In this document: piece by piece, positions 3,585 through 62,090 of the stretch | Layout of the letters: each line of letters starts with the position of its first letter | Numbering within the stretch: position 1 is the first letter of the stretch | Source of the DNA: Klebsiella phage NU-KP11 | Strand: one strand, 5' to 3' | Sequence record: OR644643.1 | Length of the DNA: 64,000 bases | Translations under genes and position numbers: made by a program | The notes under the pieces: model-generated | What the model saw: only the letters and a program-made list of their open reading frames with translations | Database searches by the model: none | What the model was told of the DNA's origin: nothing

Positions 3585-3787
3585 TGGAACACGTAATCAA
3601 AACAGAGATTGACAAACGCGTATTTTTGGAAAAGAATAAAACGGTAACGCTGTTGAACTACTCCACTGAAAATTGTTCTAGTGAATTTTGGCGCGTTAAC
3701 ATCGATAGCAAAGGGCAACACCAATCAATACCGTTTGATAATGAAAGTCTCGCTCGCGCTGTCTTCCAATCCCATGTTAGATTTTGA
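3581..3787 (+). CDS. hypothetical protein (68 aa)
   Basis: ATGA coupling to upstream stop. Confidence 0.4.
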   Translation: MMEHVIKTEIDKRVFLEKNKTVTLLNYSTENCSSEFWRVNIDSKGQHQSIPFDNESLARAVFQSHVRF

Positions 3788-3798
3788 GAATTATATTA

Positions 3799-8922: not shown

Positions 8923-10266
8923 ATGAAATATGTTTTAGACACTAACGTTTTAGTCTCGAACCCCTATTCAATCTATTCATTCACTCAACCTGGTACAGAA
9001 ATCATTATTACCTCTGCTACTATGGGTGAATTAGATCACCTGAAAACGAAAGAACGAACAGCACACGAAGCACGATTGGCGATCCGGCTTCTGTCAAAAG
9101 TTATTTTCGGTCAGTCATATGATGCGATTACGAAATCAGGTATTCCTTTAAACCTGACAAACCCAGCACTGTCTGACACTATCACCCTTAAAGTGGTTGA
9201 TTATGTCGGAAACAAAACGTTTGCTCTTGACAAGCAAGACGAACGAATCATTGAAACTTGTATGCAACAGGATGCAACCTTAGTTACTCGCGATATTATG
9301 ATGTTGCTGATCGCAATGTCCCGTGGGTGTAAGGTAGAACAGTATACTGGCGACGATACGTTAAAAGATAGCGATGTATTGTATTCCGGTTATGTAGAGA
9401 TCCCTGATTTCTGGGATACCGTAGAAGTGTTGGGATATACAGATAATGTAGCCCAAATCACTTACAGTTCGCTTCCTGACGAATATTTTTATCCTAACCA
9501 GTACATTACCTCAAATGGTGAGTTAGTCGGGCGTGTGGTGACTGCTGATGAGATTTGCTTGAATGTCTTACCTGTTAAGCACGAACAGGCTATGAAACGC
9601 AAACTCATGAAAGCTATTCAGCCCCGTGATTCTCTGCAAGCGGCTTTCGTTGAATCCATTATGAGCAATGAAATCGATGTTGCTACCATTATGGGCGGCG
9701 CTGGTTCTGGTAAAACAATGCTTGCTGTTTCCGGTGCTATGCACCTGGTTAATAGTGGACATTACGCTAACTTGATGTATGTGAAGTCAGATAGCCCGTT
9801 ATCAAGTGAAATCGGCTTCCTTCCTGGTACATTGGGCGAAAAACTCCGGCCTTCTATCGAACCTTGTATTACTAGCCTGAACATTCTGTTTAAGGATAAT
9901 CCGGAATCTGAAAAATACATTGAAGGTTTGATTGAAAAAGGGGTGGTGCAATTCCCTAGCCTGTATTACTTCCGTGGTCGCAGTATCGGACATCCGGATC
10001 CGGGCAAAGGTTCTGTGCTGATTGTTGATGAATGTCAAAACCTTAGCAACCACGAAATTAAATCTATCATTTCTCGTTGCGGAGAGAACACACTTCTGAT
10101 ACTATGCGGGAACATTAAGCAGATCGACAACCCTCGAAACACTGCCGTTAACAACGGGTTTGTATGGGCTGTTGAAAAGCTGAAAGAATACGAACACTCA
10201 AGCCATATCATTCTTGATACAGTGTATCGTTCCCGTCTCGCGGCGTTTGTCGAAGATAATTTCTAA
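8923..10266 (+). CDS. phoH: PhoH-like ATPase with N-terminal PIN domain
   Basis: Walker A GGAGSGKT; N-terminal YVLDTNVL PIN-like. Confidence 0.85.
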   Translation: MKYVLDTNVLVSNPYSIYSFTQPGTEIIITSATMGELDHLKTKERTAHEARLAIRLLSKVIFGQSYDAITKSGIPLNLTNPALSDTITLKVVDYVGNKTFALDKQDERIIETCMQQDATLVTRDIMMLLIAMSRGCKVEQYTGDDTLKDSDVLYSGYVEIPDFWDTVEVLGYTDNVAQITYSSLPDEYFYPNQYITSNGELVGRVVTADEICLNVLPVKHEQAMKRKLMKAIQPRDSLQAAFVESIMSNEIDVATIMGGAGSGKTMLAVSGAMHLVNSGHYANLMYVKSDSPLSSEIGFLPGTLGEKLRPSIEPCITSLNILFKDNPESEKYIEGLIEKGVVQFPSLYYFRGRSIGHPDPGKGSVLIVDECQNLSNHEIKSIISRCGENTLLILCGNIKQIDNPRNTAVNNGFVWAVEKLKEYEHSSHIILDTVYRSRLAAFVEDNF

Positions 10267-24648: not shown

Positions 24649-26865
24649 ATGATCACTAACATTGAATTCAAAAACGCCGTAGCCAAACCAACCCCGACTA
24701 ACCACGTTTTTGTTTGTGACGTATCCGGATCGATGTATAACGAACTCCCGCGCATTCGTCAGCACCTGAAAAACAACCTGGCAACGCTGGTTAAGCAGGA
24801 TGATACCGTATCTATTCTGTATTTCTCCAGCCGTGGTCAGTTCGGTTCTGTATTCGTGGGCGAAAAGGTTAGCTCTGTATCCGACCTGAGCAAAATCAAT
24901 GATGCTATCGATCGTTATCTGCGTCCGACCGGATGTACTGGCTTCGTTGAACCTCTGCAACTGGCGGTTGAAGTCGCTACCGATCTGCAAGCGGATAATG
25001 GCAATCTGAACAGTCTGATCTTCCTGACTGATGGTTATGATAACTGCTGGCGTACTGATGACATCCTGAAAGCGTGTTCTACTCTGCCGTTGACGTTTAA
25101 CAACATTGCTTTCCTGGAATATGGTTATTATGTAAACCGTCCTCTGCTGGAAAAAATGGCGGAAGCAACCAACGCATTACACAAATTCGTTGAAGGGTTT
25201 GATGCGTATGTACCTGCATTTGATGAAATCATTACCGCGCAAACCTCCGCACGTGTTGAAGTCAAAGTTGGCGATGCAACCCATGCGATCTACCTGGATG
25301 AAGGCCGTGTGTATGTCCTGAATGCTGCAAATGGTGTTGTTCTGGTTCCGGAACATATCAAAAACATTTGGGCGCTGGGTGAAAACGCGATCAATGACGT
25401 TGACGGCTTCGATCCGGCAACAGCAGAAGGTGAACAGGTTCTGTATGTGGTTCTGTATCATGCGCTTCATACCATGAATCCAGATCTGGCATGGAAAGTT
25501 CTGAAAAAGCTGGGTGATGTGCGTCTGATTAAAGCATACGATAACTGCTTTACCAAACAGGATTATTCCAACGCTAAAGATATGATCTCCGAAGCGGTTG
25601 TTGATCCGGCTAAACGTCTGATGGATGGTGTTGATTACAACATGGTTCCTGATGAAAATGCGTTTACTCTGGTTGATGCTCTCGAACTGCTGGCAGAAAC
25701 CGACACCGTGATCGACCTGTCTTCTGAACACTGGGCGTACAATCGTACAGGCCGTCAGACTGTCCAGAAAGATGATGATACGCTGGATAAACTGTCAGAA
25801 CAGATTGCAAACGCTTCTACTCCGGAAGAACGTAAAGCACTGGCGGCGCAACTGGTAGCGCATGAAGTATGGAAACCGGAATTTACCCAAACCACAACGA
25901 AAGTTGCAGTGAAACACCTGGTGGGTAACAGTTCCCGTCCGAACATTTCCATCAATACGGATCTACAAGGTTATGTAACCATTCCGGAAAGCAAACAAAA
26001 AGAGTTTGGATTACCGGAAAAAGTAGAAACCAAACAAGTGCGTAACTTTACCATTGTTAAAGATGGTATCGTGAACGTTAAAGTACTGCCGCTGGAAACT
26101 GATATTCCGACTCTGAAAAACTTACGTGCTTCTGGTCTGACTATCAAACCGCTGGCGAAAATTGGTGAAGACCGTATGTCTGTACTGGTTGACTTTACCT
26201 CTCTGCCTCTGGTTAACCGTTCGATGACTCGCGGTATTTCTGGTAAGGAATTTGTTGCTGATAACGTCCGTCTGGAAATCCTGAAAGGCCGTCAGAAGGT
26301 AATGAAGTTCTTCCGTGATAACGCGATTGGTTTACGCAACGCAGAAGGGCTTAAACAGCGCTTTGGTGAGGCGGCTGGTGAATGGTTGTCTGAGCAAGGG
26401 ATCCGTGATTACGGCTTCTCTCCGAAGGTTGAGCGCACAGAATCGACTGATGTTTACATGTCGAAAGAACTGAACGTGAAAATCAAAGGCGTTTCATCAC
26501 TTCCGGCTGTTGCGGCTACCGTTGCAAAACGCGCCGAAGGTAAGAAGAAACTCAACAATGGTGACCTGATCATTCTGTGGGCTTACGATACCGTATCTAA
26601 AGAGATCGAAGCGCTTGACAAGAATGACCTGATCGAGTATCTTGATAAGCAGACAAAGGAAACTATTAAAGAGGTTCGCGCCCTTAATAATCGCCTGAGT
26701 CGTGTAATGTACGGTATTGTCGTCGGACACGCATGGTTTGCGGATCTGGATTTCGAAGAAACCAGCGTAAGCGTTACCGCAACAGATATCGTTGCAGCGG
26801 AATTCTGGAAAGATGTGAAATTTGATTGCACAATCGTTCTGGAAGAAAAAGAAGTCAAACTCTAA
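24649..26865 (+). CDS. large von Willebrand factor A (vWA) domain protein (738 aa)
   Basis: MIDAS motif VFVCDVSGSMYN near N-terminus. Confidence 0.7.
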   Translation: MITNIEFKNAVAKPTPTNHVFVCDVSGSMYNELPRIRQHLKNNLATLVKQDDTVSILYFSSRGQFGSVFVGEKVSSVSDLSKINDAIDRYLRPTGCTGFVEPLQLAVEVATDLQADNGNLNSLIFLTDGYDNCWRTDDILKACSTLPLTFNNIAFLEYGYYVNRPLLEKMAEATNALHKFVEGFDAYVPAFDEIITAQTSARVEVKVGDATHAIYLDEGRVYVLNAANGVVLVPEHIKNIWALGENAINDVDGFDPATAEGEQVLYVVLYHALHTMNPDLAWKVLKKLGDVRLIKAYDNCFTKQDYSNAKDMISEAVVDPAKRLMDGVDYNMVPDENAFTLVDALELLAETDTVIDLSSEHWAYNRTGRQTVQKDDDTLDKLSEQIANASTPEERKALAAQLVAHEVWKPEFTQTTTKVAVKHLVGNSSRPNISINTDLQGYVTIPESKQKEFGLPEKVETKQVRNFTIVKDGIVNVKVLPLETDIPTLKNLRASGLTIKPLAKIGEDRMSVLVDFTSLPLVNRSMTRGISGKEFVADNVRLEILKGRQKVMKFFRDNAIGLRNAEGLKQRFGEAAGEWLSEQGIRDYGFSPKVERTESTDVYMSKELNVKIKGVSSLPAVAATVAKRAEGKKKLNNGDLIILWAYDTVSKEIEALDKNDLIEYLDKQTKETIKEVRALNNRLSRVMYGIVVGHAWFADLDFEETSVSVTATDIVAAEFWKDVKFDCTIVLEEKEVKL

Positions 26866-43564: not shown

Positions 43565-43600
43565 AAAAAGCCGCTACCTTTCGGCAACGGCTTGATTTTT
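43565..43600. terminator. Bidirectional terminator AAGCCGCTACCTTTCGGCAACGGCTT with T-runs both sides
   Basis: hairpin + T-runs. Confidence 0.55.
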
Positions 43601-43868
43601 AATATTTTTCGTCAGGCTGAAACACCGCACGACACGCCCACATAGAGGCTTCTTTCAGTCGGTCTTTCGCTAGTTGAATTTGATGGATACGTTCAAGCAC
43701 CTCATCTAATTCTTCCTCTATCAGTGAATCAATATCTGAATTTGATAGTCGCTGTTCGATATCTTCCAGGATTGCACCTAATGCATTTTCAGCATCTTTG
43801 ATACGGTTTACTGTTTCTACTTTTTTATCAGTATGGGGTTTATAACCCGTAATATCAGAAATTGCCAT
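43599..43868 (-). CDS. hypothetical protein (89 aa)
   Basis: ORF track. Confidence 0.5.
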   Translation of the reverse strand: MAISDITGYKPHTDKKVETVNRIKDAENALGAILEDIEQRLSNSDIDSLIEEELDEVLERIHQIQLAKDRLKEASMWACRAVFQPDEKY

Positions 43869-44230
43869 TATAGACTCTCTGTAAAAGTACGGGCAATAAC
43901 ATCGCGTTGCTGTTCCGGCGTCAGGGAGTTAAAACGCACTGCATAACCAGATACACGGATCGTCAACTGCGGATATTTTTCAGGATGTTCAACCGCATCC
44001 AGGAGAGTTTCGCGGCGCAACACGTTAACGTTTAGATGTTGTCCACCTTCCACTTTAACAGTTGGCTGATATTCGATCTCGATCTCTCGCTTTGCAAACG
44101 GAGTAACGCGAGCTTTACCGATTACAGAATCCATAGTTAATGTTTTTGATACTACGATCCGAACGTCGTTACCTTCTTCCAGATAGATTGTGCCCGTATG
44201 CAAACCTTCTAAAATTTGAAATGCTTTCAT
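43868..44230 (-). CDS. grcA: autonomous glycyl-radical cofactor GrcA/YfiD homolog
   Basis: C-terminal ~60 aa nearly identical to recalled E. coli GrcA ([58 protein letters not shown]). Confidence 0.85.
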
Positions 44231-44240
44231 TGTATTACCT

Positions 44241-44813
44241 TTACTTGATTACATAATACCTGAATGGATTGAAATGAAACGCCAGCATTGCGCGATCCAG
44301 GTTAACAGGGTCGCTAACTTCTTGTTTCAGCTTCCATCCAGCATAAACGCGCAAACAGAATTGCACCTTGTGGATCCGTAGCCACGGTTTATAGACATAC
44401 AACCCCCATGCTGATTCATTCCACATGAGCAGATATCCATGATTTACGGGGTTTGGCCCACCTTCTGTTTTTGGGTTGCCTTTCCAGTTGAATTTGCTTG
44501 TCGCTTCACGTCCTAAAACGTGATATGCGAAGTTATAAGCCTTGTTTCTCCACAACCAGCCAACACGCTGCATGTATACCCCAAAATCCCCCAGATGATA
44601 GCGTATAGACGCCCAACGGCGGATATGTCCACCATCACCATCAATAGGGTTATCGAAGGTTTCCATCCACCGGAAGCCTTTAGGAAGATGCCCTGTTTTC
44701 TCGTTGTAGAACGGTACAACAAACGGGGCAAACAGAATTGCTAATACTCCAGTAATAATGTCAAGAGGGACGAGTACGATCCAACTTGCATACTTTAAAA
44801 AGCGCATAGACAC
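44241..44813 (-). CDS. membrane protein (190 aa)
   Basis: N-terminal TM segments. Confidence 0.5.
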
Positions 44814-44816
44814 CCC

Positions 44817-44845
44817 AAAAATAAGGCTATCCGAAGATAGCCATT
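44817..44845 (-). terminator. terminator GGCTATCTTCGGATAGCC + T-run (minus)
   Basis: hairpin + TTATTTTT. Confidence 0.55.
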
Positions 44846-45709: not shown

Positions 45710-45786
45710 TGGTGGCAAGGGTAGGATTTGCACCTACAACCAACAGAATCAGATTCTGTTCCTCCCGCTTCTCTAAGTGCCTTGCC
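45710..45786 (-). tRNA. tRNA-Gln (anticodon CUG), 77 nt with encoded CCA
   Basis: Manual cloverleaf: acceptor GGCAAGG/CCTTGCC, anticodon stem ACAGA/TCTGT loop ATCTGAT, T-arm GTAGG-TGCAAAT-CCTAC; C at position 8 atypical. Confidence 0.6.
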
Positions 45787-45791
45787 TTGTT

Positions 45792-45868
45792 TGGTGGCCC
45801 CTCCCGTGACTTGAACCGGGAACCTAACCATTATGAGTGATTAGCTCTACCTATTGAGCTAAGGGGCC
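45792..45868 (-). tRNA. tRNA-Met/Ile2 (anticodon CAU), 77 nt with encoded CCA
   Basis: Acceptor GGCCCCT/AGGGGCC, D-arm GCTC-AATAGGTA-GAGC, anticodon loop CTCATAA, T-loop TTCAAGT; T-stem needs a 1-nt A bulge. Confidence 0.6.
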
Positions 45869-51035: not shown

Positions 51036-51368
51036 TTATATATCCAAAAAGTCAAGTGATCTTTTCTTACCACACAAAACATTAACCACATGCGCGATGT
51101 AATCACCGTGACAGGGAAGAGGCGCACAGGTACAACCAAGCCTCTTTCCATCAAGTTCTTTCAATTCTTCAATCGTGATCGCCCCAGTACGAACCTGATT
51201 CTGGAACCAGGGGATAAACGCTAAAATGTTTTCTCCCCTGGTTCCTGTGTGATAAGGGTTGCCGAACTTCGTACCTCTTTGAATATCGACATCCCAATCA
51301 GTTTTGTACTTGTTTACTACCCGACAATCACGCGTATTTGCTGGCCCATTTTGCATACGCTTCATCAC
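51036..51368 (-). CDS. conserved phage protein with FGNPY and CxCxPLPCHGD motifs (DUF4326-like)
   Basis: motifs only. Confidence 0.4.
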   Translation of the reverse strand: MMKRMQNGPANTRDCRVVNKYKTDWDVDIQRGTKFGNPYHTGTRGENILAFIPWFQNQVRTGAITIEELKELDGKRLGCTCAPLPCHGDYIAHVVNVLCGKKRSLDFLDI

Positions 51369-52505
51369 TGATTTCAGTATTCAGGTTTCCGACGAGGTAA
51401 GAACTTACTTCAACCTCTTGCGGGGCAACCTGTACGTTATCACTTTTGAGCCATTTATTCATCCACGGATACGGGTTAGGGATCGGGGTGAATGGCGAAT
51501 CAAGCCCTACCGCTCGCATACGCTGATCTGTAAGGTGTTCAATATAAGCGATAGTGCTTTTCAGCGATACACCTTCTACATCACCAACAGAGAATAAATG
51601 TTCAGCCCATTCTTTTTCCTGTTCATATACTTCCAGGAAGATAGCCGTTGCTTCTTTTTTCAGCCTACGGGAGATTTCAACCATTTCTGGATCATCTTTA
51701 CCCATTTGCCACAAACGGATTTTACTCTGAGTACCTTTCTGATGCAATGCTTCATCACGCGCAATCAGGCGCATAATTTTCGCGTTGCCTTCCATCTTGC
51801 CTTGTTCAGCAAAGTTAAAGGTGAAACTAAACGACACATAGAAACGGATCGCTTCCAGAGCGTTCACAGCGTGCATACACAGGTACAGAGCTTCTTTGCA
51901 CTTAGTGGCCTGTTTAGTGTATTGCTCGTTATAATACACGACAGCCGGATCATTTGGTTTATAGCCGCTAACCTGTTCCTGTAGCATCATGATGGTTTTC
52001 AGCTTATGACATTCATCAATCAGAGTATCATAATACCGTGTCATTGATGCGGAACGTTTCATAATCGCTTCATTGCGAAGGATTTGGTCGAACTGTACAG
52101 AAGGATCAATGTGCAAGTTACGTTGAATATGCGTGTAACTACGGCTGTGGATGGTTTCACTAAACGCCCACGTTTCGATCCAGGTTTCCATACTCACATC
52201 GGATGCAATTGGCAAAAATGCGAGGTTAGGCCCACGTCCCTGAATGGTATCTAACAGGGTTTGATACTGTAGGTTAGAATCGAAAATGATTTTTTCATGT
52301 TCAGGAAGTTTTGCATACTGCATACGGTCAGTAGACAGATCGACTTCTTCCGGACGCCAGAAGAAAGAAAGCTGTTTTTGCGTCAGGCTTTCGAAAACTT
52401 TGTGTTTCTGCGATTCATAACGTGCAACACCAGTATCTTCACCAAAAAACATAGGTTGTTCTAAGTGGTTATGATCTGGGTTTGTATTCATTACTGTTAA
52501 CATGT
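51328..52505 (-). CDS. nrdB: ribonucleotide reductase small subunit
   Basis: Colinear with E. coli NrdB (EQPMFFG, LSFFWRPEEVD, EALHQ...); start set at ATG after hairpin and SD AAAGG. Confidence 0.9.
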
Positions 52506-52535
52506 CTTTACCTTTAAAAAGCCCCCGAAGGGGCA
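52506..52535 (-). terminator. intercistronic hairpin GCCCCTTCGGGGGC + T5 between nrdA and nrdB
   Basis: hairpin + T-run then SD. Confidence 0.5.
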
Positions 52536-52539
52536 TTAA

Positions 52540-54792
52540 TCAAATCTTACAACCCGCGCAATCTTCGGCGGCTTCTTCTTCATCACCAGCACCATCACGC
52601 GTATTATGATAGTACAGAGTTTTAACACCGTAGTAGTTAGCATACAGCAGATCATCAATGATGTCTTCTGTTTTAACTTTCCCGTCTTCATAGTTTGCCG
52701 GGTCATAATTGGTGTTTGCAGAAATAGACTGATCGACAAACTTCTGCATAACTGCTACATGAGACAGATACCCTTTGTTACCGCGTTTAGCCATATCCCA
52801 GAGCAGATCATAGAAATCAATCTGGTTATTCTGGTTAGGCACAACCTGGTTATAGTGTCCTTCTTTCGAAGATTTGATACTCACTAAACCGCGCGGAGGT
52901 TCGATCCCGTTGGTAGAGTTACTAACCTGTGAACTACTTTCACAAGGCATTAAAGCAGAAAGAGTAGAGTTGCGCAAGCCGTATTTCTTAATCTGACTAC
53001 GTAACCATTCCCAATCGCAATTATAAACAGGTGCTACCAGTTCATCAACGGTTTTGCAATACCAATCGATAGGCAGTAACCCGCGAGCGTATTTGGTATC
53101 GTTGTACAATCCACATGCACCACGTTCTTTCGCCAGTTCCATAGAAGCAACGAGAAGGTTAAACTGAAACGCTTCCATTAGCTCATGAACTTTGTCTGTA
53201 TACGCTTCTGAGTAGTCGCAATAGTTGCTCGCTAACCATGATGCATAGTTGGTGATACCAACACCCAGAGAACGGCGCTGTTTAGCTTTCAGAGCGGCTT
53301 TTACAGGGTAGTTCTGGTAATCCAGCAGGTTATCAAGCGCACGTACTGCAATACGCGTGAGTTTCGGGAATTCGCTGATATCAGCGTTATCCAGAACGAT
53401 AGCCATTAGCGTACACAATCCGATTTCACCAGCCATTTTATCATCGTCATCCAGCGGCGACGTTGGGATCGCAATCTCACAACACAGGTTAGACATACGA
53501 ACAGGAACCGTAAAACTACCCTGTTGGTTGACGTGATGAGTGTTGAAAATGTATTTGCGTCCTGTCTGTGCGCGTTCCTGTGCTAACAGTTGGAACAGGT
53601 CAACCGCTTTGATGCGTTTCTTACGAACAGTTGGATCTTTTTCCAGGCTTTCATACAGTTCTTCAAATGCAGTCTGATCAGCTTCATAGAACAGATCATA
53701 CAGACGATCGTTAGCAACATCCGGACTAAACAGCGTAATGTAATCACGATTCATTAAGCGTTTATACATCAACTGGTTAAGCTGTACACCATAATCAATA
53801 TGACGAACGCGGTTTTCTTCTACACCTTTGTTGTTCTTCAACACCAGAAGGTTTTCAACTTCCAGATGCCAGAAAGGATAATACAATGTTGCAGCACCAC
53901 CACGAACGCCACCCTGTGAACAGGATTTAACAGCGGTTTGGATATGTTTCCAGAAAGGAATCACACCAGTATGAACAGCTTCACCACCACGGATTTTAGA
54001 ACCCATTGCGCGAATATGTCCCGCGTTAACCCCAATACCAGCACGTTGTGAAATATACTTCACGATCGCAGAGGTTACAGCGTTAAGAGAACCAAGAGAA
54101 TCACCCGATTCAATTACTACACAACTGGAGAACTGGCGCGTAGGAGTACGTACACCCGCCATAATTGGAGTTGGTAGAGACAGTTTGCGATCGGAAATTG
54201 CGTTATAAAAATCAACGATATGCGTAACCTGTGCTAATCCAGTTTCTTCCTGATGCAGACACATCGCAATAAGCATAAACGCATACTGAGGGGTTTCAAA
54301 GATTTCGCCAGTATCGCGATCCTGAACCAGATATTTCCCGATTAACTGTTGGGAACCAGCATACGAAAATTCAAAATCCTTATCATGATCAATTGCACGT
54401 TCGAAAACTTGAATATCTTGCTTGCTGTATTTTTCCAGGATCTCTTTATCGTATTTCCCCGCTTCAACCATTTTAACGATGTGATCGTAGAACGGGATAG
54501 GATCGAACTGACCGTAAACGTCTTTACGCAATGCAAACATTTCAAGATTCGATGCTACGTATTGCCAATCCGGTTCTTTAACAGAAATATGATCTGCTGC
54601 ATACTTGATAGCGATACGTTGAATTTGTTTGGTAGTCATACCATCGCGTATCAGTTCTAATACATTTTCAAGGAATGCACGAACATCGATATTATGACCA
54701 TCACAGGCCCACTTGAGCACTTTGTATATTTTTTCTTTGTCAAACGGCTGGCGTACACCAGAGGATTTTACTACTACTTTAATGTCATTCAT
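52540..54792 (-). CDS. nrdA: ribonucleotide reductase large subunit
   Basis: Colinear with E. coli NrdA incl. C-terminal ...GCESGACKI-like tail. Confidence 0.9.
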   Translation of the reverse strand: MNDIKVVVKSSGVRQPFDKEKIYKVLKWACDGHNIDVRAFLENVLELIRDGMTTKQIQRIAIKYAADHISVKEPDWQYVASNLEMFALRKDVYGQFDPIPFYDHIVKMVEAGKYDKEILEKYSKQDIQVFERAIDHDKDFEFSYAGSQQLIGKYLVQDRDTGEIFETPQYAFMLIAMCLHQEETGLAQVTHIVDFYNAISDRKLSLPTPIMAGVRTPTRQFSSCVVIESGDSLGSLNAVTSAIVKYISQRAGIGVNAGHIRAMGSKIRGGEAVHTGVIPFWKHIQTAVKSCSQGGVRGGAATLYYPFWHLEVENLLVLKNNKGVEENRVRHIDYGVQLNQLMYKRLMNRDYITLFSPDVANDRLYDLFYEADQTAFEELYESLEKDPTVRKKRIKAVDLFQLLAQERAQTGRKYIFNTHHVNQQGSFTVPVRMSNLCCEIAIPTSPLDDDDKMAGEIGLCTLMAIVLDNADISEFPKLTRIAVRALDNLLDYQNYPVKAALKAKQRRSLGVGITNYASWLASNYCDYSEAYTDKVHELMEAFQFNLLVASMELAKERGACGLYNDTKYARGLLPIDWYCKTVDELVAPVYNCDWEWLRSQIKKYGLRNSTLSALMPCESSSQVSNSTNGIEPPRGLVSIKSSKEGHYNQVVPNQNNQIDFYDLLWDMAKRGNKGYLSHVAVMQKFVDQSISANTNYDPANYEDGKVKTEDIIDDLLYANYYGVKTLYYHNTRDGAGDEEEAAEDCAGCKI

Positions 54793-54799
54793 TCTCTTA

Positions 54800-54828
54800 C
54801 CTTGTTAAGAAAGGGGCCGAAGCCCCAT
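54800..54828 (-). terminator. intercistronic hairpin GGGGCTTCGGCCCC + T-run between td and nrdA
   Basis: hairpin then SD AAGGTAAGAGA. Confidence 0.5.
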
Positions 54829-54831
54829 TTT

Positions 54832-55707
54832 TCATACTGCCATTTCAGCTTTTAGAGAGCCGTGATTATGATACCCTTCTAAGGTTATCGAGTCAAAGAA
54901 TTCTTGATCTAAATCAAGTAAGCTATTTACCTTCGGCATTTTTAGAATCGGTAATGGCATTGGTGAACGGTTAGGCTGTAAAAGTTCTTTTGCCTGTTCA
55001 ACCGCATTTTTATAGATATGGACATCACCACCAGTCCAAACCAGATCGCCCACTTCGTACCCGCAAATATCAGCGATAATATGCGTCAGGAGAGCATAGG
55101 AGGCGATATTGAACGGCAACCCTAAGAAGACATCAACTGAACGCTGATACCACTGTAGAGACAGTTTACCGTTGATTACAACGAACTGGAAGAAACAGTG
55201 ACACGGACGCAACGCCATATCATCAAGATCAACAGGGTTCCAGGCAGAAACGATGATCCCGCGATCGTCTGGGGTTGATTTCAGTTGTTCAATGACTTTT
55301 GCGATCTGATCAACACCACTACCGCCATAATAACTATCATCATCCCCATAAAGAGAACCAAATGAACGCCATTGATGACCATAGATTGGCCCCAGATAAC
55401 CATCTTCATAGCCTAAATCAATAGCTTGTTTCTCATAGTTATCGTCCCAGATCGTGCGCTTATCGCTATTTTCACCCCAGGTCATCCGGCGAAGTTCTTC
55501 GACATTAGTCGAACCGGACAGGAACCATTGCAATTCATGCTTGCACGGCTTGAAGAACAGTTTTTTACAGGTAGTTGCGGGGAAACCTCTGTTTAGATCC
55601 CATCGGGCTTGTGCGCCGAAAATACGAATAGTACCTACACCAGTGCGATCGGTTGATTCAACACCGTTATCAAGTACAAGTTTAATAATATCCAGATACT
55701 GTTTCAT
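54832..55707 (-). CDS. td: thymidylate synthase
   Basis: ThyA motifs (RPCHCFFQF, 291 aa), no intron. Confidence 0.85.
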   Translation of the reverse strand: MKQYLDIIKLVLDNGVESTDRTGVGTIRIFGAQARWDLNRGFPATTCKKLFFKPCKHELQWFLSGSTNVEELRRMTWGENSDKRTIWDDNYEKQAIDLGYEDGYLGPIYGHQWRSFGSLYGDDDSYYGGSGVDQIAKVIEQLKSTPDDRGIIVSAWNPVDLDDMALRPCHCFFQFVVINGKLSLQWYQRSVDVFLGLPFNIASYALLTHIIADICGYEVGDLVWTGGDVHIYKNAVEQAKELLQPNRSPMPLPILKMPKVNSLLDLDQEFFDSITLEGYHNHGSLKAEMAV

Positions 55708-55708
55708 T

Positions 55709-56299
55709 TTATACCTTTTTATATCGATCGACTACGATTTTTTCAATGCGTTCATGTTCTTTGATGTACTGAGTTTTGAAATCAGTAAATTCATATTTTA
55801 ACAATGCATCACCCAATTCAGAAGCAGTAAACGAAACATCGCGTTTAAATGCTGGGGCATTATATACATGATGTCCGTAAATGTGCGTCAAAACTACTTC
55901 ATCAACCATTTTATTATTGATTGAATCTAAAAGCAACCCCTTACCACCGATGACACATACATTTTTATCTGGGTGTGTTGCTTGCATTGTACCAATAGCA
56001 GCAGACAACCCGCCACCGTGGATCACATAATCAGCAACCTCTCCTTTTTTGGTTTTCAAAAAACTACCGGAACCAGACAGAACACAATGGATCCTACCAG
56101 GTAGTTTACCCGGAAGAGAGATAAACGTATTTGCACCCATGATCAAAACGCTATCGGCGGTTTCTTCTTTGAAGTTCTGTAAATCTTCTTTACAGTGGCC
56201 CCACGGCAAGCCTTGCTGATATCCAAAAGCGAAATCATCGTGGTAGATATCATGCCCCAGCGCAAACACCGCTTTTACTATGCTCATATTGCGATCCAC
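55709..56299 (-). CDS. frd: dihydrofolate reductase
   Basis: GLPWG...DLQNFK...IMGANTF; upstream of td as in T4. Confidence 0.75.
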   Translation of the reverse strand: MDRNMSIVKAVFALGHDIYHDDFAFGYQQGLPWGHCKEDLQNFKEETADSVLIMGANTFISLPGKLPGRIHCVLSGSGSFLKTKKGEVADYVIHGGGLSAAIGTMQATHPDKNVCVIGGKGLLLDSINNKMVDEVVLTHIYGHHVYNAPAFKRDVSFTASELGDALLKYEFTDFKTQYIKEHERIEKIVVDRYKKV

Positions 56300-57114: not shown

Positions 57115-58824
57115 TTAGTAAGTCAAGCGCCACAATTGAATTGCTGCATCAACTTCCTTCTTGATATCTTCCGGAGTGTCTTTGCGCTGTGCTTTGACTA
57201 ACATAGTCATCATTTTACGAATAGTGTTGTTCATATTCGCTTTCTCACGTGCTGCATGAACAGCCTGTGATTTTTCCACTTCCGGTGTATCTTTCTTAGC
57301 CGCCTGTGGTTTGGTAGGCTGTGCGCCGATTTCGTCTTTCTGTTTAGGTGCTTTTTGCTCTGCTTCCTTCTTCACATGAGGCGCGGAGAATTTACCCGCT
57401 TTGAAGTTAGAATTCATTTGATCTAAAGCGCTCTTAACAGTGTTCCAGTCAGAGATCCCGCGTAAAGATTTCAGAGTATCAGTGAGCAGGCTAATGCTTG
57501 CGCCTTTGGTATCTTCTGCGATATCGATTCCTTTCAACCACTCAATGTGTTTCTGACCAGAGTACGTGAAATTAAAGCTACTGAATGAGTAGTATGCTTT
57601 ACGGTTTACAACAATACGCTTGAAGTTGATAGTAACACCAGCGCCGTTATCAAATTCAACATAACCGCTGGTAGGCATTACACGAGCACCAATATCTTTT
57701 AGTGCTGCGAAGTATTCCTCTTTACCGATACGATTAACAGTGCGTTTTGGCTTCTCTTCTGGTTTTGGTGCGGCTTCCTGAGCAGCTACACGTTTAACAA
57801 AAGATGCTGAACGATGTCCCGCCGCAAACTCTGCGTTCATCTTATCGATCGCGTTCACAACTCCTTGAACACTCGGTTTCAGTTTCTGCAACTCTTTGAA
57901 CGTATCAACGATCATATCCAGGCAAGCGCCGTCCTCATCTTCGAACATTGTTCCGCGAAGTTGTGCAGCCGGACGATACTTAGATACAGCAGGATCATAC
58001 ACCGCGCTAAACACATAAGCACCTTTGCGCATGAATACGTGACGATAGAAACGAACTTTCAGTGTACCAACTTCAACAAAGATATCGTTTCCGCTAATGT
58101 CAGCGCCTAACAGCTTACGGAATGATGCCAGGTAATCAGCACGTTTGTACTTGATATTTTTCTGTACAGGGCTGAAAATGCTTTCCAGTTTTTTAGACGG
58201 GAACAGGCTTTCCGGAGTGATCTTATCTGGGTTTTTGCCCCATTGATAATCACGGCTTGCCATTTTATGTTTTTTAGTTCCAACCAGTACAAAGGTACTA
58301 ACAGAAACGCTACCCAGTGCAGATGAATCCGGAGCGGCTAACCCTTGTCCATTCGGAGGGGTGCAGTTGAAACCGAAATCAAAGTAAGCATCACCAGAAG
58401 TGAAACGGAACGAAGCATAAACACCGTGACTACCTTTTGTTACTTCCTGTTTGAAAGTGGTAGGCAATCCAGTGTATTTGGTGAAGTATTCCGCAAATTC
58501 CTGTGCGTTAAATTTGGTGCTGAAATAGTTTTTCGCCACTACAAAGTAAGCATCAACTTTTTCTTCCCATTCTTTCTTTTGACGTGCATAACGTGCGCGA
58601 ACGTCACCAGCAGTCTCAGAACGTGCGCCACTAGGCCCAGTTTTTGTAACGACGTCGTAAGCCTGGTTAATTTTCTGCATTAATTCATTGCTACCACCAC
58701 GGTCGGGGTGATTGCGTAAGGATGCACGTTTGAAGAGTCTGGACATTTCGGCGCTGGTTTCGCTACCAGTTGCGCCCAAAACTTTCAGTGCTTCCTGATA
58801 AGTCATTTTGGATTCGGTGATCAT
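57115..58824 (-). CDS. J-domain (DnaJ N-terminal, HPD motif) protein with two internally duplicated ~120-aa domains (569 aa)
   Basis: YQEALKVLG...LFKRASLRNHPDRGG; two ~120-aa segments each ending in a shared Q/MN..F.AG..SA..VK motif. Confidence 0.6.
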   Translation of the reverse strand: MITESKMTYQEALKVLGATGSETSAEMSRLFKRASLRNHPDRGGSNELMQKINQAYDVVTKTGPSGARSETAGDVRARYARQKKEWEEKVDAYFVVAKNYFSTKFNAQEFAEYFTKYTGLPTTFKQEVTKGSHGVYASFRFTSGDAYFDFGFNCTPPNGQGLAAPDSSALGSVSVSTFVLVGTKKHKMASRDYQWGKNPDKITPESLFPSKKLESIFSPVQKNIKYKRADYLASFRKLLGADISGNDIFVEVGTLKVRFYRHVFMRKGAYVFSAVYDPAVSKYRPAAQLRGTMFEDEDGACLDMIVDTFKELQKLKPSVQGVVNAIDKMNAEFAAGHRSASFVKRVAAQEAAPKPEEKPKRTVNRIGKEEYFAALKDIGARVMPTSGYVEFDNGAGVTINFKRIVVNRKAYYSFSSFNFTYSGQKHIEWLKGIDIAEDTKGASISLLTDTLKSLRGISDWNTVKSALDQMNSNFKAGKFSAPHVKKEAEQKAPKQKDEIGAQPTKPQAAKKDTPEVEKSQAVHAAREKANMNNTIRKMMTMLVKAQRKDTPEDIKKEVDAAIQLWRLTY

Positions 58825-58897: not shown

Positions 58898-59089
58898 TCA
58901 ATAGATTTTTTCGAGGAACCAAACAGAACTTTTGTTGTTCTTGATTCGCGTCAACTCTATAGGATTATTTTTGAATGCTTCCTCAACATCTTTCATAGTA
59001 ACTATATGTTTTTCTTCAAGAAAATTGTTGTGGAGATAAAACCGCTCTATTTCCGGAGCGGTTTCTAATTCAAATTCTCTTTCTAACAT
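58898..59089 (-). CDS. hypothetical protein (63 aa)
   Basis: ORF track. Confidence 0.45.
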   Translation of the reverse strand: MLEREFELETAPEIERFYLHNNFLEEKHIVTMKDVEEAFKNNPIELTRIKNNKSSVWFLEKIY

Positions 59090-60789
59090 TATGCACCTCG
59101 ATCATTGATAGTACACTTTGTGAACCGTCCAACTTTCTGCATGGTGATATGTCGGTCGAAATCTTGCGGATCCAGATCCTGATGACTGATAATGATAGTG
59201 TTTCCTTCAATGCTGTCAAGTAAAGTTTTGATTGCATATGAACCTTCTCGGTCAAGTGGCCCGTCAAAAACTTCATCCAGGATCAGAAGGGATAAATCAA
59301 CACCAGAAATTTTACTGGTTACATCGCGCCAGGTGAACAATAAAGCAAGGTTAATACGTGCTCTTTCGCCTTGACTGAACGATGCGTAACTAAAATCATT
59401 ACGACCCAGCGATTTAATAGATTCGTTAAATTCGTCATCCAGAGTGAACTGATAATCAGCACCCAACAGATCCAGATAGTACGCAATCTGTTTATTGAAG
59501 TAAGGAATATAACGTTTAACGATGCTCGCTTTAACGCCGGAATCTTTCAGCAGATCCGTAACAATACCTCTGAAATATTTTTCCTTGACAAATCCGGAAC
59601 GTTTAGAATCAAGTTCCTTTTCATCTTCACGGAGTTTTTCAACTGGGGATTCATCGATCACCACGTCTTCCTGTGCTTTATCCATGACAGCCCGAACACG
59701 TTTAGCCGCTGCAACTTCATTTTGAAGTGTACCGCGTAGTGATTCGTATTTGGATTTCAGCCCATTTAGTGTACGTTGTTGTGTTAGTAAATCATCCATG
59801 ATTTTCTGTAGCTGATCTTGTTTGTTCTTAATCAGCGTAAGTTTCTGAGTACCGTTTTTAATATTCTCGGCAATCTCTTCCATGCGTTCAGGAGTGGGGC
59901 TAATTGGCTGTTTACAGGCCGGACATTCACCACCCTTGCGATACATCACCTCAAGACGCTGCAACTGTTCTACGTTCATTGAGAGGCGTGTATAGCCATC
60001 ACGCAGTTTTTGAATATTTGCTGTTTGGTCTTCACCATTGATCACACATTCTGCGATCTGGGTTTGAAGTTCAACTAATTGCGCTTTAATCTGTTTTGCT
60101 GTTTCTACGTGGGAATCGTAGATATCCTGGTAACGCGCCGTATTCTGATTTGCTTTTGCCCGTTGTTCGTCAATGAACTTTTGATGTGTTGCGATCTGCT
60201 GTTGTACGTGTCCAATCTGCATTGAAAGCGTATCCAGTTCACGGTTAACACCACGGATGTATGATTTGTTCAGTTTGTCCATTTCACTGATGATAGACAA
60301 AGACAACAAATCTTCAACCAGTTTACGGCGATCTGGTGTTTTCAGTTCCATGAAAGGTACATAACCAGCAGTACCCAGAACGATAACCTGTTTAAAGCCC
60401 ACCAGGTTAATATTCAACATTGATTCAAGCTGTGACTGATAATCACCAGCGGCTGAATCTTCCGGCAGTTTTTCGCCATTCTTCCAGATCTCAAATACTT
60501 TCGGCTTTTGTCCACGGATGATTTTATATTCATCATTGCCGTATTCGATCAACAGTTCAACCAGACATTTTTTCTTGTTGATACTGTTCACCAGTTGCCC
60601 GACTTTCAGATCGCGAAATGACTTACCAAAGAGAGCATATGTAAGCGCTTCGATCATGGTGGATTTACCACCGCCGTTTTTACCCGTAATGAGGGTTTTC
60701 TTTGCTGAATCAAAATCAATGACGATCGGTACGTTACCAACCGACAAGATATTTTGATAAGTCAATGTTTTAAATTTGAGTTTCATCAA
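59089..60789 (-). CDS. 46: recombination endonuclease ATPase subunit (SbcC/Rad50-like, T4 gp46)
   Basis: Walker A GKNGGGKST, long coiled coil, CxxC zinc hook, C-terminal D-loop/LILDE. Confidence 0.85.
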   Translation of the reverse strand: MMKLKFKTLTYQNILSVGNVPIVIDFDSAKKTLITGKNGGGKSTMIEALTYALFGKSFRDLKVGQLVNSINKKKCLVELLIEYGNDEYKIIRGQKPKVFEIWKNGEKLPEDSAAGDYQSQLESMLNINLVGFKQVIVLGTAGYVPFMELKTPDRRKLVEDLLSLSIISEMDKLNKSYIRGVNRELDTLSMQIGHVQQQIATHQKFIDEQRAKANQNTARYQDIYDSHVETAKQIKAQLVELQTQIAECVINGEDQTANIQKLRDGYTRLSMNVEQLQRLEVMYRKGGECPACKQPISPTPERMEEIAENIKNGTQKLTLIKNKQDQLQKIMDDLLTQQRTLNGLKSKYESLRGTLQNEVAAAKRVRAVMDKAQEDVVIDESPVEKLREDEKELDSKRSGFVKEKYFRGIVTDLLKDSGVKASIVKRYIPYFNKQIAYYLDLLGADYQFTLDDEFNESIKSLGRNDFSYASFSQGERARINLALLFTWRDVTSKISGVDLSLLILDEVFDGPLDREGSYAIKTLLDSIEGNTIIISHQDLDPQDFDRHITMQKVGRFTKCTINDRGA

Positions 60790-61084
60790 TTATCCTTTGG
60801 GATATATCACTAATCATGTTTGTAATCGTGCTATCAAAGCAGTATATCACGGAATCTTCATCCATGCTATTCAGGACAGTAAATGTCCAAACCTTTGTTT
60901 CGTGATAGTTGTCTTTAATCAAAGTGAACCCCAATGACACATACTCATTATGGGAATCCTGCTGTACTGCAACAATCACATCAAATCCAAACATTTTATA
61001 AAGGGCTTTATATCGCCCTTCTTCGTTTAAAATATTAACGTAATCAACTATTTCCATTGCTCGTAACCTCTGCATACAATGCAC
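60770..61084 (-). CDS. hypothetical protein (104 aa) between gp46 and gp47
   Basis: ORF track. Confidence 0.45.
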   Translation of the reverse strand: MHCMQRLRAMEIVDYVNILNEEGRYKALYKMFGFDVIVAVQQDSHNEYVSLGFTLIKDNYHETKVWTFTVLNSMDEDSVIYCFDSTITNMISDISQRIIDETQI

Positions 61085-62090
61085 TCATTATTGCAGATAC
61101 TTCGGTCTTTTCTTCTGGAGTGATCTGCATGTTGTTGATGTACTCACTAATCAATCCAGATACACTTTTGATTTCAAAATCAGTATCGACTTCTGAATCA
61201 GTGATCACGCGATCGACAATGTTCAATTCATAAACTGTTTCTTCCAGTTTTGTTTGAAACTTAGGCAAATCGTTATCAACTTCGCGTACAATCAAGCGAA
61301 CAGAGCAATTTTTGTAATCTGCAACATCAACATCTTTTTGATCCGGATAGGTGATCCGGCGATGGTGGCATACTGGGTTAGCAATGAAAGTTAATTCACG
61401 TTTACCGTCGCCATAAGATAGCTCATAGAAGCCCCTGGTTTCGTCCTCATCGTTCGCGCTCATGGTCAGAGGTGTACCGATATAGAAAACGTTAGCGCCT
61501 TCGTTAGCGTGATGATAGTGGCCTGAATACACGATATCATATTTCTTTAAGAAATCAGGTTCAAGCCCATGATCCGCTTTACTGTTCTTATAGAAATAGT
61601 ATCCGGACAGTTCAAAGTGTCCTAAGCAGTATTGAGATTTTGACTTTTTGATGAAATCAAAAATCTGTTGTGTGTTTTCTTGACAAATCCACGGGATCAA
61701 ATCGATTGATTGCAGCGGAGAAGTATCAAGATTTACTGTCATCGGTTCATCAACAACCGTGAAGCAATCATACTGATCAAGAATCTCTCGCGGTGAGTTA
61801 GGGCGGATCTTGTCTTTAAACTGGCAATCGTGGTTCCCAACCAGAACATAGATATGTAATCCGGCTTCTTCCAGTAGTGGCACAATACGTTCACGAATGA
61901 ATTTCATCGTGGTTTGTGTGGTGGCCTTGCGCACATCAAAGAAATCACCAGCATGGAAAGCCTCGGTAATGCCGTTTGCTTTGCAGTGTTCTACGATTTG
62001 TACGAATACATTGTATAGGTTTTCTTCATTCCAGGGGTTGTCCTGACGCAAGCCAGCGTGAGTATCCCCGATCATTAAGTACTTTCTCAT
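61044..62090 (-). CDS. 47: recombination endonuclease nuclease subunit (SbcD/Mre11-like, T4 gp47)
   Basis: phosphoesterase motifs MIGDTHAG, GNHD, GHYHH. Confidence 0.85.
   Translation of the reverse strand: MRKYLMIGDTHAGLRQDNPWNEENLYNVFVQIVEHCKANGITEAFHAGDFFDVRKATTQTTMKFIRERIVPLLEEAGLHIYVLVGNHDCQFKDKIRPNSPREILDQYDCFTVVDEPMTVNLDTSPLQSIDLIPWICQENTQQIFDFIKKSKSQYCLGHFELSGYYFYKNSKADHGLEPDFLKKYDIVYSGHYHHANEGANVFYIGTPLTMSANDEDETRGFYELSYGDGKRELTFIANPVCHHRRITYPDQKDVDVADYKNCSVRLIVREVDNDLPKFQTKLEETVYELNIVDRVITDSEVDTDFEIKSVSGLISEYINNMQITPEEKTEVSAIMSALYAEVTSNGNS

What the first reader, a model, noticed from the sequence alone, without database searches (positions are those of the whole stretch)
43868..44230. 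Phage-encoded GrcA (YfiD) glycyl-radical spare-part protein
The C-terminal 60 residues are almost identical to E. coli GrcA, including the radical glycine motif RVSGYAV. The N-terminal half has diverged. GrcA rescues oxygen-damaged pyruvate formate-lyase, so the phage appears to support host anaerobic or microaerobic energy metabolism during infection. This is a horizontally acquired host gene.
Basis: partly seen in the sequence, partly recalled or inferred. Interest (0 to 1): 0.55.

Follow-up and report, generated by a model that had tools for sequence, protein, structure and literature searches.

The report
Phage copy of GrcA spare-part protein
This is an intact phage gene for the small "spare-part" protein GrcA, which repairs oxygen-damaged pyruvate formate-lyase; it is the ordinary counterpart of phage T4 gene vs.6 (Y06I), studied since 2001, and is already annotated in near-identical Klebsiella phages.

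Summary
Window 43868..44230 (minus strand) is an intact 120-aa ORF. Its last 60 residues are 58/60 identical to E. coli GrcA/YfiD, with RVSGYAV at residues 92-98 and the radical glycine at G95.

The window is a Klebsiella Slopekvirus (T4-like, Straboviridae). The same protein is already annotated as "autonomous glycyl radical cofactor GrcA" in near-identical phages. It is the full-length ortholog (76% identity) of T4 vs.6/Y06I, which was shown in vitro to restore oxygen-cleaved pyruvate formate-lyase. About 1,586 phage records carry a homolog.

The "diverged" N-terminal half is a phage-type version shared with T4-like and T5-like phages. It is collinear with the bacterial N-terminus and predicted to keep the same five-strand fold.

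This is not a recent host capture:
- No bacterial grcA exceeds about 82% nucleotide identity.
- Synonymous sites are saturated.
- GC3 matches the phage.
- Phage sequences form their own clade.

Purifying selection is strong (dN/dS about 0.03-0.06). NrdD and NrdG lie outside the window in a 99%-identical relative. Verdict: real, functional, already known, low interest. The in-vivo benefit to the phage remains untested.

The parts
43868..44230 (-). grcA (T4 vs.6/Y06I ortholog) CDS, 120 aa plus TAA stop
   Evidence: ORF list; PF01228 at 4e-18; phrog_1209 at 4e-59 over the full length 1-120; 76% identity to T4 vs.6; 100% identical protein annotated grcA in phiKp_17.
43871..44062 (-). C-terminal glycyl-radical domain, residues 57-120
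   Evidence: 60/64 identical to E. coli GrcA and 50/64 to the E. coli PflB C-terminus. Foldseek matches 6owr (YfiD) at 3.7e-6 and 2pfl (PFL) at 4.5e-4. dN/dS is about 0.03-0.06 against T4 and RB69.
43937..43957 (-). RVSGYAV glycyl-radical loop (residues 92-98); the G95 codon is at 43946-43948
   Evidence: Motif position. R92-V98 are invariant in the 50-sequence alignment. G95 aligns with GrcA G102 and PflB G734 (residue roles from PMC12338860).
44063..44230 (-). Phage-type N-terminal domain, residues 1-56
   Evidence: 31/56 identical to T4 and RB69, 14/47 to E. coli GrcA. It is collinear with the bacterial N-terminus, keeping Q5, I6, R24, K29, D34, R48, E49 and P56. AF2 predicts five beta strands at pLDDT 91-93, and the same topology for a bacterial GrcA.
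44238..44241 (-). Shine-Dalgarno-like AAGG, 7 nt upstream of the ATG, overlapping the stop codon of the upstream gene
   Evidence: Minus-strand sequence ...AAGTAAAGGTAATACA-ATG. An RBS is annotated at the equivalent position in KLB25.
44241..44813 (-). Upstream gene in the same unit: DUF7338 protein, 190 aa, annotated in KLB25 as containing a transmembrane domain
   Evidence: Pfam PF24027 at 5e-65; phrog_2143; no T4 vs.7/vs.8 similarity.
43599..43868 (-). Downstream gene, acb2 (T4 vs.4 homolog); its ATG overlaps the grcA stop (TAATG)
   Evidence: Pfam Acb2_Tad1_hairpin at 3.4e-17; 50% identity to T4 Vs.4 at E=8e-28; junction sequence.
44825..44842 (-). Terminator-like hairpin just upstream of the three-gene unit
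   Evidence: Consensus scan. This is a pattern match only.
43568..43593 (-). Strong terminator-like hairpin (11 pairs followed by a T-run) just after acb2
   Evidence: Consensus scan. This is a pattern match only.

Best explanation
[quoted passage not shown] The proposed mechanism has four steps. (1) The protein is made during infection from a small DUF7338-grcA-acb2 unit. (2) Under low oxygen, the host PFL-activating enzyme PflA (radical SAM) abstracts a hydrogen from G95 in the RVSGYAV loop. (3) The C-terminal domain, which copies PflB residues ~696-759, docks into host PflB whose own radical domain was cut at G734 by oxygen, or is otherwise inactive. (4) The G95 radical is passed to PflB C419, restoring pyruvate + CoA -> acetyl-CoA + formate. 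The phage-type N-terminal domain probably mediates binding to damaged PflB and efficient activation, as the N-terminal half of E. coli YfiD does. I infer the benefit to the phage: T4-like infection stops host gene expression, so the phage supplies its own spare part to keep the existing PflB pool, and therefore fermentative ATP and acetyl-CoA supply, running in microaerobic habitats such as the gut. Shown here: gene identity, orthology, residue conservation, purifying selection and predicted fold. Taken from the literature on homologs: steps 2-4. Inferred and untested for any phage in vivo: the fitness benefit.
For: Identity and orthology: PF01228 at 4e-18; 6owr YfiD at 3e-40; phrog_1209 over the full length at 4e-59; 76% identity to T4 vs.6 with retained vs.6-vs.4 linkage. 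The window protein scores 149.6 bits on the NCBIfam GrcA model, essentially the same as the biochemically validated T4 Y06I at 151.1. All 43 invariant family columns are present, including R92-V98. The C-terminal domain is 50/64 identical to E. coli PflB. Selection: dN/dS is 0.03-0.06 against T4 and RB69, and all 11 substitutions against phage phiKp_17 are synonymous. AF2 gives the same N-terminal five-strand topology for the phage and a bacterial GrcA. Literature: Y06I and YfiD restore activity to O2-cleaved PFL after activation by PFL-AE, and the YfiD N-terminal half is needed for cPFL binding and efficient activation (PMC8683613). The GrcA G102 radical transfers to PflB C419, and GrcA rescues PflB-G734A in vivo (PMC12338860).
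Against: This protein has not been tested experimentally, and I found no in-vivo phenotype for any phage grcA in the searchable literature. The score is below the curated NCBIfam equivalog cut-off (149.6 versus 170). The N-terminal half is only about 30% identical to the bacterial one, so partner recognition could differ. The AF2 confidence for the C-terminal domain is modest (pLDDT about 60-78; residues 57-70 below 50). Promoter timing was not established: the sigma-70 scan found fewer promoter-like sites than the shuffled controls (4 versus a mean of 7.4).
Confidence: 0.85

Rival explanations
1. Recent capture of the host's grcA: a fresh horizontal transfer from Klebsiella or E. coli whose N-terminus then diverged quickly.
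For: The C-terminal 60 residues are 58/60 identical to E. coli GrcA. Up to 62/64 are identical to some enterobacterial GrcAs, including a Klebsiella sp. replicon.
Against: Nucleotide identity to E. coli and to 80 bacterial species' grcA is at most 82% over the 192-nt domain. Synonymous differences are saturated (pS 0.54-0.76) while dN is about 0.035-0.08. No bacterial genome in a scan of one genome per species (185,579 species) encodes anything above 71% identical across most of the protein, residues ~18-120 (one shorter match over residues 34-120 reaches 76%), whereas phage homologs are 75-100% identical. The phage-type N-terminus (MKAYQ...) is shared with T4-like and T5-like phages, and these form a clade without bacterial sequences. 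Gene GC3 of 0.37 fits the phage genes (0.28-0.47). The position is syntenic with T4 and RB69 vs.6.
Confidence: 0.03
2. Decaying remnant or pseudogene: a PflB/GrcA fragment no longer under selection for function.
For: The N-terminal half is strongly diverged from bacterial GrcA, and the score is below the NCBIfam cut-off.
Against: The ORF is intact and the same length (120 aa) as in T4 and RB69. All invariant residues are kept. dN/dS is about 0.03-0.06, and there are 0 nonsynonymous changes among 11 within Slopekvirus. The protein is at least 99% identical in 104 phage records and present in 1,586. The N-terminal fold prediction is confident and matches the bacterial one.
Confidence: 0.02
3. 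Spare part or partner for the phage's own glycyl-radical enzyme NrdD (anaerobic ribonucleotide reductase), possibly activated by phage NrdG rather than by the host PFL system.
For: Slopekviruses encode NrdD (with a Gly_radical domain) and NrdG (PMC11845039). NrdD is also oxygen-sensitive at its glycyl radical (general knowledge; T4 NrdD G580 is cited in PMC13450708 ref 69).
Against: BLASTP finds no alignment between the GrcA radical domain and the NrdD of a closely related phage (best E=0.05, over an unrelated 15-residue stretch). By contrast, the domain is 78% identical to PflB's C-terminus and 94% to GrcA's. T4 Y06I works with PFL and PFL-AE in vitro (PMC8683613).
Confidence: 0.03
4. Metabolic manipulator rather than repair part. 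The phage protein would act as a decoy that soaks up PflA activity or blocks PflB, or it would serve other PFL-like host enzymes such as TdcE, to redirect pyruvate, SAM or formate flux.
For: The distinct phage-type N-terminal domain, conserved among phages (55% with T4) but only 30% identical to the host's, could change partner binding. GrcA can also act on uncleaved inactive PflB in vivo (PMC12338860), so its role is broader than oxygen repair.
Against: The T4 ortholog restores rather than inhibits PFL activity in vitro (PMC8683613). The radical glycine and every invariant residue are retained under strong purifying selection. A pure blocker would not need those, although a substrate decoy might.
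Confidence: 0.07

Closest known systems
Bacteriophage T4 Vs.6 (Y06I), autonomous glycyl radical cofactor (Wagner et al. 2001, BBRC 285:456; cited in PMC8683613 and PMC13450708)
   Same: Same length (120 aa) and 76% identity over the full length, including the phage-type N-terminus. The C-terminal domain is 60/64 identical. The NCBIfam GrcA score is the same (149.6 versus 151.1). Linkage to vs.4 (Acb2) is retained.
   Different: The host genus is Klebsiella rather than Escherichia. The N-terminal half is 55% identical. vs.5, vs.7 and vs.8 are absent from the neighbourhood: a DUF7338 gene lies upstream and acb2 is directly fused downstream. This protein has not been tested biochemically.
E. coli GrcA/YfiD (PDB 6owr; TIGR04365)
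   Same: A standalone small protein. Its C-terminal radical domain is 94% identical with an identical RVSGYAV loop. The N-terminal region is collinear, with the same predicted five-strand topology.
   Different: The window protein is 7 residues shorter. Its N-terminal half is about 30% identical. It scores below the equivalog cut-off (149.6 versus 170; E. coli scores 234). It is encoded by a lytic phage and falls in a phage-only clade.
C-terminal radical domain of pyruvate formate-lyase PflB (PDB 2pfl, 1h16), residues ~696-759
   Same: 50/64 identical, with fold matches. The loop sequence around the radical glycine is the same.
   Different: It lacks the ~690-residue catalytic barrel (TIGR01255 score 91.8 versus cut-off 994), so it cannot be an enzyme on its own.
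T5-like phage (Demerecviridae) GrcA homologs
   Same: The same phage-type start (MKAYQ...) and the same clade in the NJ tree.
   Different: Only about 52% identical overall. The N-terminal region carries indels. The genomic context is different (a tRNA cluster).

Membership tests
Phage Vs.6/Y06I-type GrcA (PHROG 1209) | Full-length match to the phage family profile and to T4 Vs.6 | tested here: met
   phrog_1209 at E=4e-59, residues 1-120 against profile 1-121/121. 76% identity to T4 vs.6 over 120/120 residues.
Phage Vs.6/Y06I-type GrcA (PHROG 1209) | Conserved genomic linkage in the vs region of T4-like phages | tested here: met
   The vs.4 (Acb2) homolog lies immediately downstream. T4 and RB69 have vs.6-vs.5-vs.4. 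The linkage is partial: vs.5, vs.7 and vs.8 are not found here.
Autonomous glycyl radical cofactor GrcA/YfiD (TIGR04365, IPR011140) | Small standalone protein (~120-130 aa) ending in a glycyl-radical domain with RVSGYAV and the radical glycine | tested here: met
   A 120-aa ORF. PF01228 matches residues 60-101. RVSGYAV at 92-98 with G95. All 43 invariant columns are present.
Autonomous glycyl radical cofactor GrcA/YfiD (TIGR04365, IPR011140) | C-terminal domain mimics the PflB segment lost on O2 cleavage | tested here: met
   50/64 identity to E. coli PflB 696-759. Foldseek matches to 2pfl, 1mzo and 1cm5.
Autonomous glycyl radical cofactor GrcA/YfiD (TIGR04365, IPR011140) | Reaches the curated NCBIfam equivalog cut-off (170 bits) | tested here: not met
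   149.6 bits. This threshold is tuned to bacterial GrcA (E. coli scores 234). The biochemically validated T4 Y06I also fails it at 151.1, as does RB69 at 157.1. I therefore file the protein under the phage Vs.6 subtype, not as a bacterial-type equivalog.
Autonomous glycyl radical cofactor GrcA/YfiD (TIGR04365, IPR011140) | N-terminal region homologous to that of YfiD (needed for cPFL binding and activation) | tested here: met
   The HMM alignment spans residues 18-120 against profile 23-126. Q5, I6, R24, K29, D34, R48, E49 and P56 are conserved. The AF2 strand topology is the same in the phage and bacterial proteins. Sequence identity is only about 30%.
Autonomous glycyl radical cofactor GrcA/YfiD (TIGR04365, IPR011140) | Radical installed by PFL-activating enzyme; restores activity to O2-cleaved PFL | not testable with these tools
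   Shown for E. coli YfiD and T4 Y06I only (PMC8683613).
Short GrcA2/GrcA3 forms (NF008341, NF038360; 78-80 aa) | Reaches the curated cut-off; no long N-terminal extension | tested here: not met
   92.6 bits against a cut-off of 145, and 109.2 against 158. The protein has a 56-residue N-terminal domain.
Formate C-acetyltransferase PflB/TdcE (TIGR01255) | Full-length ~760-aa glycyl radical enzyme with the catalytic Cys pair | tested here: not met
   Only profile positions 678-744 match; 91.8 bits against a cut-off of 994. The annotations 'pyruvate formate lyase' in some phage records are misnomers.

The most novel reading that the evidence does not exclude
The phage-type N-terminal domain is shared by T4-like and T5-like phages, is only ~30% identical to the host's, and is predicted to fold as a five-strand beta domain. 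It may retune the spare part, for example by out-competing host GrcA for damaged PflB, by serving additional host PFL-family enzymes such as TdcE, or by accepting its radical from phage NrdG. The phage would then actively reprogram fermentative flux rather than merely duplicating a host repair function.
Probability: 0.1. Interest if true: 0.45.

Novelty: already known. Interest (0 to 1): 0.12.

Why it matters
The gene adds little that is new. Phage-encoded GrcA has been known biochemically since 2001 (T4 Y06I), and it is already annotated in near-identical Klebsiella phages. The value of this check is corrective in two ways. First, the gene is an ancient, vertically inherited and strongly constrained member of the T4-like and T5-like gene pool, not a fresh host capture. 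Second, its extreme C-terminal conservation reflects the need to fit host PflB and PflA. The real open question is whether phage GrcA gives a measurable fitness benefit during microaerobic infection, for example in the gut. No searchable paper has tested this. It could be tested directly with a G95A or deletion phage.

Tried and rejected
1. Recent host-to-phage transfer. I tested this by blastn against 5,426 E. coli genomes, where the best match was 84% identity over the 3' half only. I also scanned one genome per bacterial species and ran codon-level comparisons. Rejected.

2. Pseudogene. Rejected on the basis of invariant residues and dN/dS.

3. Spare part for phage NrdD. Rejected because there is no detectable similarity to the NrdD radical domain.

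4. A phage-encoded PFL activase in the window. The only radical-SAM-like ORF (3681..4943) carries a SPASM domain and gives only weak maturase-type hits, so it is not PflA- or NrdG-like. NrdG itself lies outside the window.

5. nrdD/nrdG inside the window. Not found among the ten ORFs scanned with Pfam, nor in the annotation of relatives across this region. The window carries the aerobic nrdA/nrdB instead.

6. Gene conversion with host grcA as the source of the divergent patch against phiKp_17. Unlikely, because the patch (43812-43973) extends into acb2, which hosts lack.

7. A fold match for the N-terminal domain. Only non-significant KOW/SH3-like hits (E about 0.3), so no assignment was made.

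8. Sigma-70 promoter scan. Fewer hits than in shuffled controls, so it was uninformative.

9. Literature searches for an in-vivo phage grcA phenotype. Nothing found. Two relevant papers (PMC9112899 and PMC6754787) are not held.

I repeated it with permitted rows.

Full report
**Observation**

The stated coordinates hold an intact minus-strand ORF, 43868..44230, running ATG to TAA and encoding 120 aa. It matches Pfam Gly_radical (PF01228) at 4e-18. Its best NCBIfam match is the GrcA model TIGR04365 at 5e-44. It matches the solved E. coli YfiD/GrcA structure 6owr at 3e-40 over residues 19-120, and E. coli pyruvate formate-lyase at 1e-27 over residues 57-120.

A direct alignment gives these identities:
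- Residues 57-120: 60/64 with E. coli GrcA. The last 60 residues are 58/60, differing only at L78 and E82.
- Residues 57-120: 50/64 with the PflB C-terminus.
- Residues 1-56: 14/47 with E. coli GrcA.

RVSGYAV sits at residues 92-98, and the radical glycine is G95. Only the strand was left unstated.

**What the window is, and whether this is new**

A 2.3-kb stretch around the gene is 99.8% identical to Klebsiella phage vB_KM5a1-KLB25. It is 98-99% identical to Matisse, vB_KpnM_M1, phiKp_17 and more than 100 other records. All are Slopekvirus, a genus of T4-like Straboviridae.

Several of these records already annotate this exact gene as "autonomous glycyl radical cofactor (GrcA)". Some call it, loosely, "pyruvate formate lyase". 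A tblastn search finds a homolog in 1,586 of 50,697 phage records:
- At least 99% identical in 104 records.
- About 75-77% identical over the full length in T4, T2, RB69 and many Tequatrovirus and Mosigvirus phages, where the gene is named vs.6.
- About 52% identical in T5-like phages.

T4 Vs.6 is Y06I. Together with E. coli YfiD, it is one of only two spare-part proteins validated biochemically. After radical installation by the PFL-activating enzyme, it restores activity to oxygen-cleaved PFL (PMC8683613, citing Wagner et al. 2001; full reference in PMC13450708).

**Orthology with T4 vs.6**

The window protein and T4 Vs.6 are both 120 aa and align without gaps at 76% identity. PHROG 1209 matches over the full length at 4e-59.

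On the NCBIfam GrcA model the scores are:

| Protein | Bits |
|---|---|
| Window protein | 149.6 |
| T4 Vs.6 | 151.1 |
| RB69 Vs.6 | 157.1 |
| T5 homolog | 123 |
| E. coli GrcA | 234 |
| Curated cut-off | 170 |

The shortfall against the cut-off is a property of the whole phage subtype, including the validated T4 member. It is not a defect of this gene.

The local gene order is partly conserved. T4 and RB69 have vs.8-vs.7-vs.6-vs.5-vs.4. Here a DUF7338 gene lies upstream, at 44241..44813. A vs.4 homolog lies immediately downstream at 43599..43868, is 50% identical to T4 Vs.4, and its ATG overlaps the grcA stop as TAATG. Vs.4 is the anti-CBASS nucleotide sponge Acb2; papers linking the two names were found. 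Terminator-like hairpins at 44825-44842 and 43568-43593 bracket the three genes. An AAGG sequence sits 7 nt upstream of the grcA start.

**The "diverged" N-terminal half**

The N-terminal half is not random divergence. It is collinear with the bacterial N-terminus: the HMM alignment spans residues 18-120 against profile positions 23-126, and Q5, I6, R24, K29, D34, R48, E49 and P56 are conserved. It is 55% identical to T4 and RB69, and T5-like phages share the MKAYQ start.

AlphaFold2 with a 50-sequence alignment predicts a five-strand beta domain for residues 1-50 at pLDDT 91-93. A low-confidence linker (residues 57-70) follows, then the radical domain. The same topology is predicted for a bacterial GrcA, P0114, at pLDDT 85-91.

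NMR found residues 1-60 of E. coli YfiD disordered in solution, yet necessary for binding cleaved PFL and for efficient activation (PMC8683613). The prediction may therefore describe a bound or conditionally folded state. I record this as a prediction, not a finding. Foldseek confirms the C-terminal domain (6owr at 3.7e-6; PFL at 4.5e-4). It gives nothing significant for the N-terminal domain.

**Age of the acquisition**

Four lines of evidence argue against a recent capture.
- All 5,426 complete E. coli genomes match only the 3' half, at no more than 84% identity.
- A scan of one genome per bacterial species returned ordinary 127-aa GrcAs. None exceeded 71% identity across most of the protein (residues ~18-120); a single shorter match over residues 34-120 reached 76%. 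None had the phage-type N-terminus.
- Over the 192-nt radical domain, the best bacterial nucleotide identity is about 82%. Synonymous differences are saturated (pS 0.54-0.76) while dN is 0.035-0.08. T4 and RB69 are equally distant at synonymous sites.
- Gene GC is 0.44 and GC3 is 0.37, similar to the window average (0.416) and to neighbouring phage genes.

In a neighbour-joining tree of 117 sequences, the window protein, the T4-likes and T5 form a 23-member clade with no bacterial-type sequences. This tree is unbootstrapped and midpoint-rooted. The gene is ultimately of cellular origin, but it is an old resident of the phage gene pool.

The near-identity of the C-terminus is purifying selection. 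dN/dS is about 0.03-0.06 against T4 and RB69. Against phiKp_17, all 11 differences within the gene are synonymous.

**Other glycyl-radical components**

The window itself holds the aerobic nrdA/nrdB genes plus thyA and frd. No nrdD or nrdG turned up in it, either among the ten ORFs scanned with Pfam or in the annotation of relatives across this region.

In the close relative vB_KpnM_M1, NrdD (707 aa, with ATP-cone, NRDD and Gly_radical domains) and NrdG (Fer4_12 and Radical_SAM domains) lie about 100 kb away. A published survey also notes the anaerobic reductase in Slopekvirus (PMC11845039).

The GrcA radical domain shows no BLAST-detectable similarity to that NrdD, whereas it is 78% identical to PflB. 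It is therefore matched to host PFL, not to the phage reductase. No PflA-like activase is encoded in the window. The one radical-SAM-like ORF (3681..4943) carries a SPASM domain and belongs to an uncharacterised PHROG.

**Mechanism**

The best-supported reading follows the literature on homologs (PMC8683613, PMC12338860).
1. Host PflA installs a radical on G95.
2. The domain replaces the oxygen-severed C-terminus of host PflB.
3. The radical passes to PflB C419.
4. Pyruvate cleavage resumes.

My inference concerns why a phage should carry the gene. A lytic T4-like phage halts host gene expression, so it must supply its own spare part to keep the existing PflB pool working in fluctuating low-oxygen habitats. 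No in-vivo test of this exists in the searchable literature.

**Verdict**

The finding is real, functional and correctly identified. It is already known and already annotated. The "horizontal acquisition" framing should be replaced by ancient, vertically maintained carriage. Interest is low. The only real open point is the untested fitness role, with the function of the phage-type N-terminal domain as a minor second question.

Noticed in passing
window 43599..43868 (-): The 89-aa gene directly downstream of grcA is an Acb2/Tad1-hairpin protein (Pfam 3.4e-17), 50% identical to T4 Vs.4, the anti-CBASS cyclic-nucleotide sponge. Its ATG overlaps the grcA stop (TAATG), which suggests translational coupling.
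   Followed up: partly
window 3681..4943 (+): A 420-aa ORF has a SPASM iron-sulfur domain (Pfam 3e-6) and weak radical-SAM maturase hits. It belongs to the uncharacterised phrog_7293 (E=1e-266). It is a phage radical-SAM/SPASM enzyme of unknown substrate, not PflA- or NrdG-like.
   Followed up: partly
window 45713..45781 (-) and 45792..45868 (-): One clear tRNA with a CAT anticodon is called Met by ARAGORN and Ile2 in the KLB25 annotation. Next to it is a degenerate tRNA-like sequence (Rfam tRNA 23.3 bits, below the gathering score of 29) that KLB25 annotates as tRNA-Gln and ARAGORN does not call.
   Followed up: partly
window 43812..43973 compared with phiKp_17 (L002): Divergence between two Slopekviruses is patchy and mosaic. 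There are 16 differences in about 160 bp spanning the grcA 3' end and the acb2 5' end, and none in the next 290 bp. The 11 differences inside grcA are all synonymous. This looks like phage-phage recombination patches, not exchange with the host.
   Followed up: partly
window 43868..44230 (-) and protein P0114: AlphaFold2 confidently predicts (pLDDT 85-93) a five-strand beta N-terminal domain for both phage and bacterial GrcA. NMR reports residues 1-60 of E. coli YfiD as disordered in solution (PMC8683613). This may be a fold-on-binding state.
   Followed up: partly
window 8923..10266 (+); 24649..26865 (+); 57115..58824 (-): Three other notable ORFs: a PIN-PhoH fusion protein (447 aa); a 738-aa protein with an N-terminal von Willebrand A domain (phrog_2426, unknown function); and a 569-aa protein with a weak DnaJ-like N-terminus (below the Pfam cut-off).
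   Followed up: no
window 44241..44813 (-): The upstream gene in the same unit is a DUF7338 protein (Pfam 5e-65; phrog_2143), annotated in KLB25 as containing a transmembrane domain. It has no detectable similarity to T4 vs.7 or vs.8, which occupy that position in T4.
   Followed up: partly
window 51328..56299 (-) and 59089..62090 (-): The aerobic nucleotide-metabolism cluster (frd, thyA, nrdA, nrdB) lies about 7-12 kb from grcA, next to the gp46/gp47-like recombination nuclease genes. This gene order differs from that of T4.
   Followed up: no
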